DNA from: Escherichia coli
GTDB lineage: Bacteria > Pseudomonadota > Gammaproteobacteria > Enterobacterales > Enterobacteriaceae
Assembly (NCBI RefSeq): GCF_003334815.1
Contig: NZ_QOWO01000060.1
Length of the DNA: 10,787 nt
Strand: one strand, 5' to 3'
A program made the translations under genes and the position numbers. Position 1 is the stretch's first letter. Each line of letters opens with the position of its first letter. This document shows, piece by piece, positions 5,971-7,120 of the stretch. Below the pieces are notes generated by a model. The model was not told the DNA's origin. It worked only from the letters and a program-made list of their open reading frames with translations, and ran no database searches.

Positions 5971-7120
5971 ACGTAAAAATTATGGAGCAACGTGATGGTA
6001 CGATTCATTCCATTCTTCGTTCTTTCTGAGCATTGCGTTCAGGATAGTCAGCAGCTTGCGTATACAGGTAACCAGCGCCACTTTTTTGGGTTTTCCTGCG
6101 GCAAGCAGTCGCATGTAAAACACCTTTATTACCGGGTTAAAGCGGGTTGCGACAAGCGCTGCCATGTACAGGGCTGTTCGCACACCAGCCCTGCCGCCAA
6201 AGATGGTTCGTCGCCCTCTCATCGTGCCCGAGTCCCGGTTTACTGGAACCATACCGACAAGCGCACTGATTTCACGCCTGGAGAGGTTACCCTGTTCGGG
6301 TACTTCCGCCAGCAGCGCAGCAGCCGTCATGGTGCCAACACCTTTAATACTGCTCAGTCGCTTAGCAAGCTCTTTGAAGTGGCTATGGATATGGCTGTTC
6401 ATGTCAGCATCTAGTCGCGCAAGCTCGTCTTCCAGTGCTTTGATGATGATATTAATGCTTTTCCTGTTCTATGGATGAGCAGGGTGCAACCGGTTTCTCT
6501 CGGCAACCAGCATCGTAATCAACTGCCGCCTACGAACTACCATTGCAGTGAGAACCTGACATTCAGTATCCGGCAGTGCTCTGATAAAGCGTTCCCGCTC
6601 CGGATGCCGGTTGAGAACCTCAGCCATCTGGGAAAGCACTCTGGCATCAATACTATCAGTTTTCGCGAGGTATCCCATGGCGCGGGCAAAGTCACGAGCT
6701 TGTCTGGGGTTAACCACGGCAAGCTCAAAACCTTCTGCCTGAAGCGCACAGACTATGGCGGTTTCAAGTCCTCCAGTGGCTTTCATTAAAACCAGCGCAA
6801 TGGCGTACATTCTCAACTCAGCAATGATGGCGTCAAAGCCATCACTGTCATTGCCGACAGAAAATTGTTCAATAGCGCTGCTGGCGGCAATATCCAGTAT
6901 CGCTTTCGAAACATCGATATCCACACAAAGTGAACCTGGCTGACTCATGATTACCCATCCTTGCAAATGCGTTATGGCGTACTGACAACTGTTCGGGTTT
7001 CAGATGAGTGGCTCAGTGTATGCGCCATTCGCTGAGCTACGGGCTATGAACCCCTTGAGGGATCGGGCTGCATACACCTTGCCAAATCTAATCACAGTTA
7101 TTTTAACCAATTGTCAAGAT
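5971..7120 (-). mobile_element. IS110-family insertion sequence (boundaries approximate)
   Basis: Carries an IS110-family transposase reading frame at 5980..6948, about 170 bp of non-coding sequence upstream of it and almost none downstream, consistent with IS110-subgroup architecture. This family has no terminal inverted repeats, so the ends cannot be fixed from sequence alone. Confidence 0.55.
5980..6948 (-). pseudogene. IS110-family transposase (DEDD-type), interrupted by a single in-frame TAG
   Basis: N-terminal part MSQPGSLCVDIDVSKAILDIA...NRLHPAHP and C-terminal part ...[49 protein letters not shown]... are typical IS110-family halves. They lie in the same frame (6966 minus 6402 is 564, which is 3 x 188), separated only by TAG at 6471..6469. 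ATG at 6948; TAA at 5982..5980. Confidence 0.8.

What the first reader, a model, noticed from the sequence alone, without database searches (positions are those of the whole stretch)
6949..7120. Non-coding left end of the IS110-family element is a candidate bridge-RNA locus
IS110-subgroup elements encode a structured guide RNA (bridge RNA) in the non-coding end upstream of the recombinase gene; that is established for IS621 and relatives. Here about 170 bp of non-coding sequence lies upstream of the transposase start at 6948 and essentially none lies downstream, which fits that layout. On the minus strand the region has a possible -35 TTGACA (7116..7111) and internal pairing potential, for example GCTCAG (7011..7016) with CTGAGC (7032..7037) around a 15-nt loop. 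The recombinase carries a nonsense codon, but the RNA could still be intact.
Basis: partly seen in the sequence, partly recalled or inferred. Interest (0 to 1): 0.45.

Follow-up and report, generated by a model that had tools for sequence, protein, structure and literature searches.

The report
Decayed bridge RNA gene of an IS110 element
The non-coding stretch is the left end of a dead IS110-type jumping gene in E. coli and still carries a recognisable copy of the family's known guide ("bridge") RNA, so it is a correct call but an ordinary relic.

Summary
An empty site in other E. coli genomes fixes the element at window 5959-7123 on the minus strand, between duplicated CT cores. That leaves a 175-nt non-coding left end (6949-7123) and a 21-nt right end.

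A covariance model built from 20 relatives' left ends matches window 7091-6951 at 148.6 bits. It also finds the experimentally validated IS621 bridge RNA (29.5 bits, E about 7e-5). The five-helix, two-internal-loop fold covaries across 70 distinct relatives.

The loops carry the expected guides:
- The right target guide AGCUCAG is the exact reverse complement of the right flank.
- The left donor guide ACAGUUG equals the element's right end, and the right donor guide CAAG complements its left end.
- Both handshake bases fit.

The copy is degraded, however. The left target guide has A where relatives have the core C and matches its flank no better than chance. One donor-loop stem pair is broken. 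The recombinase has a TAG stop and a K at the catalytic glutamate. Both candidate promoters need the circle junction.

Close relatives are already in Durrant et al.'s published bridge-RNA alignments, so interest is low.

The parts
5959..7123 (-). IS110-group insertion sequence, 1165 bp. It is flanked by the duplicated core dinucleotide CT (AG on the + strand) at 5957-5958 and 7124-7125.
   Evidence: The empty site in L007 has a single AG between the same flanks. Copies 75-78% identical, in yehI and on a plasmid, stop aligning at the same ends.
5980..6948 (-). Recombinase pseudogene (322 codons). It has a TAG at codon 160 (6471..6469) and K56 (AAA, 6783..6781) at the position of the catalytic glutamate E60 of IS621.
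   Evidence: stop codon, codon 56. (K56 aligns with IS621 E60). (relatives have E there). (E60 is essential in IS621). (NF033542, 202 bits).
6949..7123 (-). Left non-coding end (LE), 175 nt. This is the region of the finding.
6951..7091 (-). Bridge RNA body: the match to covariance model R1 over all 141 positions. The true 5' end is not determined; it is about 7092 or about 7108 depending on which promoter is used.
   Evidence: 148.6 bits, E 3e-35. The same model hits the IS621 bridge RNA.
7002..7089 (-). Target-binding module. P1 pairs 7089..7081 with 7012..7002. P2 pairs 7078..7067 with 7025..7015. Apical stem P3 spans 7053..7041.
   Evidence: RNAalifold consensus. Pair counts on 70 distinct sequences show 91% of cells paired and 373 double-change cells against 102 in shuffles.
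7054..7066 (-). 5' side of the target loop, CCGAUCCCUCAAG, holding the left target guide. It is degraded: A sits where relatives have the core C.
   Evidence: Only 4 of 8 matches to its own left flank TCTCCTCC, against a family cognate mean of 5.85. A published relative reads GATCCCTC-CAGGGG. All E. coli copies share the A.
7031..7038 (-). Right target guide AGCUCAG (7038..7032) plus the handshake base C (7031).
   Evidence: It is the exact reverse complement of the right target CTGAGCT (5958..5952). Family-wide, cognate pairs score 4.77/7 and non-cognate pairs 1.72/7, p<=1e-4. The handshake base pairs with donor position 7 in 71/71 rows.
6953..6998 (-). Donor-binding module. P4 pairs 6998..6995 with 6956..6953. 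The left donor guide ACAGUUG is at 6992..6986. Apical stem P5 spans 6983..6970, and its first pair is broken (A.G). The right donor guide CAAG is at 6963..6960, followed by the handshake base G at 6959.
   Evidence: ACAGTTG equals the right-end terminus at 5965..5959, and CAAG complements CTTG at 7125..7122. The guides change together with the ends in subfamilies: ACGGTTA, ATGGTTG, TAAG/CTTA. The broken pair is flagged. The handshake base pairs with target position 7 in 38/41 rows.
7100..7105 (-). Candidate -10 TAAAAT. It lies 17 nt after the hexamer TTGCTT, which exists only at the RE-LE junction of the excised circle (TTG of 5961..5959 + CT + T7123).
   Evidence: TAnnnT sits at exactly this spacing in all 18 distinct left-end types that share the window's left-end length, with a variable interior. 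Consensus match only; no expression data.
7116..7121 (-). Alternative, IS621-like -10 TATCTT. Its -35 (TTTACG, 4 of 6) would lie in the right end, so it too needs the circle junction.
   Evidence: Position matches the IS621 TATTAT box read. Read directly from the sequence. Inference.
7124..7134 (-). Left half of the insertion target, TATCTCCTC + core CT. On the + strand this is the ribosome-binding region of the zinc-ribbon gene.
5952..5958 (-). Right half of the insertion target: core CT + GAGCT.

Best explanation
Window 6949-7123 (minus strand) is the left end of a 1165-bp IS110-group insertion sequence. It encodes an IS621-type bridge RNA of roughly 140-160 nt, ending just before the recombinase start codon.

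In an active element the mechanism would run as follows. This is inferred by homology with IS621, not shown here.
1. The element excises as a circle.
2. Joining the right and left ends creates a sigma-70 promoter that transcribes the RNA.
3. The RNA folds into two stem-loops, each with an internal loop.
4. [quoted passage not shown]
5. The second loop pairs in the same way with the element's own joined ends.
6. The DEDD/serine recombinase exchanges strands at the shared CT core.

The copy in this window is a fossil of that system.
- The right target guide, both donor guides and both handshake bases still fit the insertion site and the element ends.
- The left target guide has lost its core-pairing C.
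- One donor-loop stem pair is broken.
- The recombinase carries a nonsense codon and a K at the catalytic glutamate.
- In the chromosome the junction promoter is not assembled.

It most likely does nothing today.
For: Shown here:
- Exact element ends from an empty site.
- The left end is long and the right end short, the IS110-group layout described in PMC11208160.
- The protein passes NF033542, 'IS110 family RNA-guided transposase', and is 30% identical to the IS621 recombinase.
- Model R1, built only from this family's left ends, hits the validated IS621 bridge RNA on the right strand and place (29.5 bits, E 7e-5 in 307 kb). It aligns stem to stem and guide to guide.
- The structure covaries: 91% of cells paired against 74% in shuffles and 25-45% in slid controls, 22 of 30 pairs with double changes, 0/500 shuffles reaching the score.
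- Right target guide against right flank: 4.77/7 cognate, 1.72/7 non-cognate, p<=1e-4. The window scores 5/7, with all five flank bases next to the core matching, which with the core gives 7 of 7.
- Left target guide against left flank: 5.85/8 cognate, 4.24/8 non-cognate, p<=1e-4.
- Donor guides change together with the element ends in subfamilies.
- Handshake bases pair in 71/71 and 38/41 rows, and both fit in the window.
- Near-identical relatives appear in the published donor-ncRNA and target-ncRNA alignments.

Evidence of decay.
Against: - There are no expression or binding data for this RNA. Both promoter candidates rest on consensus matches only, and the simple promoter scan found nothing in the left end.
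- The window's left target guide matches its own left flank only at the non-cognate level, 4/8. That part of the guide model is not met in this copy.
- The alignment used for pair counts was fitted to the model and leans towards the structure. Relatedness of the sequences also inflates the shuffle control (caveats).
- My search for right-end termini used the left donor guide as its pattern. Independent right-end boundaries exist only for the window, the L003/L010 pair and the multi-copy families.
- Rfam gave no hit. This is uninformative, because Rfam also fails on the validated IS621 RNA.
Confidence: 0.88

Rival explanations
1. The RNA is an orphan but still working guide. It would be transcribed from the chromosomal copy and used in trans by a related intact IS110 recombinase elsewhere in the cell, or it would act as a regulatory small RNA.
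For: The overall fold and three of the four guides are intact, and the CM score (148.6 bits) lies within the range of presumably active relatives. Related elements with intact recombinase genes occur in some E. coli chromosomes and plasmids. The locus is kept in about 720 complete genomes with very few changes.
Against: Both candidate promoters need the right end next to the left end for their -35, and the chromosomal flank supplies CTCCTT or GAATTC instead. The left target guide lacks the core C and P5 is weakened. The related recombinases are only 63-82% identical and carry their own RNAs. High conservation is what a recent, vertically inherited insertion would show anyway.
Confidence: 0.06
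2. The left end is only the promoter and 5' untranslated region of the recombinase gene. Its conserved hairpins control translation and it has no guide function.
For: The RNA ends at the start codon, and the 3' strand of P4 (GGGU, 6956..6953) lies in the ribosome-binding region. Folding could therefore also affect translation.
Against: A pure leader would not have loop sequences that track the flanking target and the element's own termini across dozens of independent insertions. It would also not align to the IS621 bridge RNA.
Confidence: 0.04
3. The 170 bp is native upstream sequence of the zinc-ribbon gene at 7134 and not part of the insertion sequence.
For: In two genomes the stretch 6929/6951-7135 is present without the recombinase gene.
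Against: About 3000 genomes have the two zinc-ribbon genes directly abutting with none of this sequence. The two exceptions have an IS1 or an unrelated gene block joined to the left end, so they are secondary deletions. The same sequence is the left end of relatives in unrelated contexts.
Confidence: 0.01

Closest known systems
IS621 bridge RNA of E. coli (Durrant et al. 2024, PMC11208160; Hiraizumi et al. 2024, PMC11208158)
   Same: - It is encoded in the left end, directly upstream of a DEDD/serine recombinase gene, with a CT core.
- It has two stem-loops with internal loops.
[quoted passage not shown]
- Handshake bases follow both 3' guides.
- The 3' end AUUUGCAAGG(A/U)UGG is nearly identical, and the donor is very similar (ACAGTTG-CT-TGTAT against ACAGTAT-CT-TGTAT).
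- The CM alignment covers the whole model.
   Different: - The recombinases are only 30% identical.
- This family lacks the 5' stem-loop of IS621. An AT-rich stretch with a conserved TAnnnT sits there instead.
- An extra helix, P1, encloses the target module.
- The left donor guide does not pair with the core C.
- The target is not a REP sequence.
- This copy is mutated in the left target guide, in P5 and in the recombinase.
Predicted bridge RNAs of enterobacterial IS110-group elements in Durrant et al. Supplementary Data (for example the Klebsiella plasmid element seen here as L008)
   Same: Same family. L008's left end is 85% identical to the window's, and its RNA appears verbatim in the published alignments. 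One published row shares the window's left target guide except for C in place of A.
   Different: Those copies have other right target guides and presumably intact recombinases. The E. coli copy is a pseudogene fixed at one chromosomal site.
seekRNA / bridge RNA of IS1111-group elements
   Same: An RNA-guided DEDD/serine recombinase with a guide RNA in a non-coding end.
   Different: In the IS1111 group the RNA lies in the right end, downstream of the gene, and the elements have longer sub-terminal inverted repeats. Here the right end is 21 nt and the RNA is in the left end.

Membership tests
IS110-group bridge RNA (IS621 type) | Lies in the long left non-coding end of an IS110-group element, upstream of a DEDD RuvC-like / Tnp-serine recombinase gene, with a short right end | tested here: met
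   Left end 175 nt, right end 21 nt, with ends fixed by the empty site. NF033542 at 202 bits against a cutoff of 140. The D, D, D and S motifs align with IS621.
IS110-group bridge RNA (IS621 type) | Sequence-and-structure homology to an experimentally validated bridge RNA | tested here: met
   Model R1, built from this family, hits the IS621 RNA in L015 at 1594-1746: 29.5 bits, E 7e-5 in 307 kb and 3e-6 in 14 kb, over model positions 1-141. E-values are rough. Relatives are included in the published alignments that were seeded on IS621.
IS110-group bridge RNA (IS621 type) | Two stem-loops, each with a large internal loop, supported by compensatory changes | tested here: met
   One search gives the RNAalifold consensus. 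In one search, 91% of cells are paired, 22/30 pairs show double changes, and 0/500 shuffles reach the covariation score. Slid controls give 25-45% paired.
IS110-group bridge RNA (IS621 type) | 3' side of the first loop is complementary to the top strand of the right target half, including the core | tested here: met
   Window AGCUCAG against CTGAGCT is 7/7. Family-wide, cognate pairs score 4.77/7 and non-cognate 1.72/7, p<=1e-4. In multi-copy families every copy has the same right flank, CTCAGTC.
IS110-group bridge RNA (IS621 type) | 5' side of the first loop has the top-strand sequence of the left target half, including the core | tested here: not met
   Met for the family (5.85/8 against 4.24/8, p<=1e-4). 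In the window it is only 4/8, the non-cognate level, with A at the core-C position. A single A-to-C reversion, as in the published relative, would give 5 contiguous matches, CCTCC. All E. coli copies carry the A.
IS110-group bridge RNA (IS621 type) | Second loop matches the element's own joined ends (left donor guide = right-end terminus; right donor guide complementary to core + left-end start) | tested here: met
   ACAGUUG equals the right-end terminus ACAGTTG, and CAAG complements CTTG. The subfamilies ACGGTTA, ATGGTTG and TAAG/CTTA change on both sides. The left donor guide does not pair with the core C in the window.
IS110-group bridge RNA (IS621 type) | Handshake guides: the base after the right target guide pairs with donor position 7, and the base after the right donor guide pairs with target position 7 | tested here: met
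   71/71 and 38/41 distinct rows. The window has C:G and G:C. The definition comes from PMC11208158.
IS110-group bridge RNA (IS621 type) | Promoter reconstituted across the RE-LE junction of the excised circle | tested here: inconclusive
   TTGCTT-17-TAAAAT exists only at the junction. TAnnnT is conserved at that spacing in 18/18 close left-end types. An IS621-like TTTACG-17-TATCTT is also possible. These are consensus matches only, and the generic scan found nothing in the integrated copy.
IS110-group bridge RNA (IS621 type) | The RNA is expressed, binds its recombinase and directs recombination | not testable with these tools
   Needs RNA sequencing, binding and recombination assays.
Active IS110-group element | Intact recombinase with the DEDD and serine catalytic residues | tested here: not met
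   TAG at codon 160, and K56 at the position of E60 of IS621, whose mutation abolishes recombination.
IS1111-group seekRNA / bridge RNA | Guide RNA located in a long right end downstream of the recombinase gene | tested here: not met
   The right end is 21 nt and the RNA lies in the left end.

The most novel reading that the evidence does not exclude
The orphan RNA might still be made from the chromosomal copy and be used in trans by a related IS110 recombinase, or act as a small regulatory RNA. About 720 E. coli genomes would then keep a guide without its enzyme. The single A in the left target guide would be a functional retargeting or disabling change rather than decay.
Probability: 0.05. 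Interest if true: 0.55.

Novelty: new member of a known kind. Interest (0 to 1): 0.15.

Why it matters
It matters little beyond annotation. It shows that the unannotated 175 bp next to this widespread E. coli pseudogene is a bridge-RNA gene. It gives exact coordinates for the guides, and it documents how such a system decays once the recombinase is lost.

The family-wide tables add independent support for the published IS621 model in a lineage whose recombinase is only 30% identical. They cover right-guide and left-guide matching, handshake-base pairing in 71/71 and 38/41 rows, and a strict right flank with a loose left flank in natural multi-copy families. They may be of some use to people choosing orthologues for engineering.

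Tried and rejected
- **Rfam scans of the window** found nothing relevant. This is uninformative, because Rfam 15 also fails on the validated IS621 bridge RNA.
It is off by one base, has no -10 partner, is not conserved in relatives (TTGAAA, TTGGTT, TTAAAT...), and is not reported by the scan.
It is at chance level and not conserved.
- **MFE pairing of the left donor guide with AACUGUG upstream**. That partner is not conserved and may lie upstream of the transcription start.
- **RNAalifold's UUGU/GCAA pairing between the two donor guides**. I left it out of the model because both strands are guides.
- **Search for E. coli copies of this insertion with a matching left target guide.** None found; variants at 98.9-99.4% identity all carry GATCCCTCAA.
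- **Stretch 6951-7135 without the recombinase gene** in two genomes. These looked like a possible native context but are secondary truncations.
- **Automatic boundary finding** gave false left-end or right-end positions for some loci: L003/L010 and L009, L054, L040 for the right end, and the long-left-end subfamily L038, L040, L045, L053, L088, L090, L093, L095 for the left end. These were corrected by hand or excluded before the statistics.

Full report
**What is at the coordinates.** The window is E. coli chromosomal island DNA; it is 100% identical to many complete genomes. On the minus strand an IS110-family recombinase reading frame runs from 6948 to 5980 and is interrupted by TAG at codon 160 (6471..6469). 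RefSeq annotates it as an 'IS110 family RNA-guided transposase' pseudogene between two zinc-ribbon genes.

I joined the two flanks in silico and searched E. coli genomes. About 3000 records hold them as one uninterrupted piece. In strain T16R the junction reads ...CCCCGGACAaCTC-AG-GAGGAaATATG with a single AG, whereas the window has AG on both sides of the insert. The element is therefore 5959..7123, 1165 bp, flanked by a duplicated CT core in element sense. Copies 75-78% identical, in yehI and on a plasmid, stop aligning at the same two points. That gives a left non-coding end of 175 nt (6949..7123) and a right one of 21 nt. This is the IS110-group layout, as opposed to the IS1111 layout (PMC11208160).

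- TTGACA is at 7117..7112, one base off. What lies 17 nt downstream is TGATTA, the hexamer is not conserved in relatives, and the promoter scan reports nothing.
- The GCTCAG/CTGAGC repeat is at the stated coordinates. However, 56% of shuffles of the left end contain a perfect 6-bp hairpin. As shown below, one arm is a variable guide and the other an invariant segment, so the pairing is not kept in relatives.

**Relatives.** The left end alone finds 941 plasmid records at 73-85% identity in Klebsiella, Escherichia, Shigella, Enterobacter, Xenorhabdus and others. A protein-pattern scan of one genome per species returned 80 loci with recombinases 49-100% identical, from Enterobacterales to Burkholderiales, Desulfovibrionales and Xanthomonadales.

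**Structure.** An alignment of 20 left ends gives an RNAalifold consensus with these parts:
- an outer helix, P1;
- a long helix, P2;
- a 13-nt and a 15-nt internal loop around a short apical hairpin, P3;
- a second module with helix P4 (ACCC/GGGU), an 11-nt and a 13-nt internal loop, and an apical hairpin, P5.

I built covariance model R1 from this alignment, leaving out a predicted pairing between the two donor-loop strands. R1 matches window 7091..6951 at 148.6 bits and every relative's left end on the sense strand. On the resulting alignment of 70 distinct sequences, the pair counts were as follows.

| Measure | Observed | Control |
|---|---|---|
| Cells forming standard pairs | 91% | 74% in shuffles; 25-45% with partners slid by 1-3 columns |
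| Pairs with double changes | 22 of 30 | |
| Double-change cells | 373 | 102 +/- 10 in shuffles |
| Shuffles reaching the covariation score | 0 of 500 | |

The alignment was fitted to the model and the sequences are related, so these numbers are generous. The compensatory changes in P2 are nevertheless visible by eye (GTGTATGC/GCATACAC, GCTCATGC/GCATGAGC, GCCTGTG/CACAGGC).

**Link to the validated bridge RNA.** The 177-nt IS621 bridge RNA sequence, which I recalled from memory, is present at 100% identity in E. coli genomes. There it sits directly upstream of a gene annotated 'IS110-like element IS621 family transposase'. R1 was built without any IS621-type sequence. It hits that RNA at L015 1594-1746 with 29.5 bits (E 7e-5 in 307 kb; 3e-6 in 14 kb). 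The alignment places:
- the IS621 target-loop stem on P2;
- its left target guide AUCGGGCCU on the 5' loop, and its right target guide on the 3' loop;
- its donor stem on P4;
- GGACAGUAUCA on GAACAGUUGUC, and UAUUUGCAAGG on the identical window sequence.

The two recombinases are 30% identical. Rfam gave no hit for the window, but it gives none for the IS621 RNA either, so that negative says nothing. The supplementary alignments of PMC11208160 were obtained by iterative search from the IS621 RNA. They contain this family: the Klebsiella element (my L008) appears verbatim, and 'GATTAGATTTGGC' occurs 35 times.

[quoted passage not shown] I extracted the loops from the model alignment, and the flanks from the loci.

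| Test | Cognate | Non-cognate | p | Window |
|---|---|---|---|---|
| Right target guide: 7 positions 5' of the invariant AG against the reverse complement of the right flank (47 distinct pairs) | 4.77/7 | 1.72/7 | <=1e-4 | GUAGCUCAG against ACAGCTCAG; all five flank bases next to the core match, so AGCUCAG = reverse complement of CTGAGCT |
| Left target guide against left flank (39 pairs) | 5.85/8 | 4.24/8 | <=1e-4 | 4/8 |

- **Multi-copy families.** In Burkholderia cenocepacia and Acidovorax, every copy has the right flank CTCAGTC, while the left flanks share only about GCT with the guide. Natural targeting in this clade is thus strict on the right and loose on the left.
- **Donor guides.** The window's ACAGUUG (6992..6986) equals the right-end terminus. 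CAAG (6963..6960) complements the core plus the first two bases of the left end. In subfamilies both sides change together: ACGGUUA with ...ACGGTTA|CT, AUGGUUG with ...ATGGTTG|CT, UAAG with CTTA.
- **Handshake guides** (defined in PMC11208158). The base after the right target guide pairs with donor position 7 in 71 of 71 distinct rows (C:G 59, U:A 9, U:G 3). The base after the right donor guide pairs with target position 7 in 38 of 41 rows. The window satisfies both.

Taken together, this is the IS621 mechanism in a distant lineage.

**State of this copy.**
- **Left target guide.** The window's loop reads CCGAUCCCUCAAG. Its best match to its own left flank (TCTCCTCC) is 4 of 8, the non-cognate average. 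Nearly all relatives have CCU, CCC or CCA at the end of this loop, where the window has CAA. One published relative has the same guide with C in place of the first A (GATCCCTC-CAGGGG). With that C the guide would match the flank over CCTCC, including the core C. The E. coli variants I fetched (98.9-99.4% identical) all carry the A, so the change is old.
- **Donor-loop stem.** The first pair of P5 is A.G, where all close relatives have C-G.
- **Recombinase.** Besides the TAG, it has K56 (AAA, 6783..6781) where relatives have E. This residue aligns with E60 of the IS621 DEDD motif, whose mutation abolishes recombination.
- **Conclusion.** The element is dead and the RNA gene is slightly eroded, although its CM score is still in the range of its relatives.

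**Promoter.** Two candidates exist, and both need the excised circle.
- **Junction -35 with internal -10.** TAAAAT (7105..7100) lies 17 nt after a hexamer that reads TTGCTT only when the right end (…GTTG) is joined through the core to the left end. In the chromosome the same position reads CTCCTT. All 18 distinct left-end types with the window's left-end length have TAnnnT at exactly this spacing, with varying interior bases.
- **IS621-like arrangement.** By position, IS621's TATTAT box corresponds to TATCTT (7121..7116), with a weak -35 (TTTACG) in the right end.
- **Consequence.** The RNA 5' end is therefore either about 7092, right at P1, or about 7108. I cannot decide between these, and neither promoter is assembled in the integrated copy. 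This is inference from consensus matches only.

**Comparison and novelty.** This is a member of the IS110-group bridge RNA family. It meets the tests for location, homology, fold, right target guide, donor guides and handshake guides. It fails the left-target-guide test and the intact-recombinase test in this copy. It differs from IS621 in four ways: it lacks the 5' stem-loop, it has an extra enclosing helix P1, its left donor guide does not pair with the core C, and its target is not a REP sequence. The kind is known, and close relatives are already in published alignments. The specific E. coli relic is not annotated as an RNA gene in RefSeq. I rate it a new member of a known kind, with low interest.

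Noticed in passing
window 6781-6783 (minus strand, codon 56): The recombinase has lysine (AAA) where all relatives have glutamate. The position aligns with the catalytic E60 of IS621.
   Followed up: yes
window 5578-5970 and 7134-7544 (+ strand): The insertion split two paralogous zinc-ribbon genes that overlap (ATG...TGA) in the empty site. The upstream gene now ends four codons inside the IS right end. 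The downstream gene keeps its GGAGG but is cut off from its upstream partner by 1.17 kb, and no outward promoter was found in the left end.
   Followed up: partly
L004 (NZ_AP045777.1) and L005 (NZ_CP159694.1): In two E. coli genomes only the left end (window 6929/6951-7135) survives. In one it is joined to an IS1A copy and in the other to an rdcB-patatin block. These are secondary deletions that leave an orphan bridge-RNA remnant.
   Followed up: partly
L015 1483-1572 (IS621 next to rhlE); L025 about 1285-1330 (Photorhabdus bodei); L035 about 1275-1315: Partial tandem left ends occur. In L015 and L025 the first partial left end stops exactly at the end of the left-target-guide sequence, and a full element follows. 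The DNA encoding the guide equals the left half of the target, so the element seems to have recombined into another copy's guide. L035 has a shorter duplication of the left-end terminus.
   Followed up: no
L059-L066 (Burkholderia cenocepacia), L076 and L080-L083 (Acidovorax temperans): In multi-copy families every insertion has the same 7-nt right flank (CTCAGTC) matching the right target guide. The left flanks share only about 3-6 nt with the left target guide. Natural targeting appears much stricter on the right half.
   Followed up: partly
L016 (JAIJJM010000559.1, 'Collinsella sp.' MAG contig, 2199 bp): This contig is 100% identical to the E. coli element and flanks. It is probably a mis-binned or contaminating E. 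coli contig in an actinobacterial metagenome-assembled genome.
   Followed up: no
L026 790-929 (-) and L030 1139-1281 (-): Model R1 finds second bridge-RNA-like matches (91.5 and 30.5 bits) on the opposite strand, a few hundred bases upstream of the main elements. They are possibly further, inverted or truncated IS copies.
   Followed up: no
window 7002-7016 versus 5952-5958: The invariant RNA segment CUGAGCC in the element's own left end resembles the right target half CTGAGCT of this insertion.
   Followed up: partly
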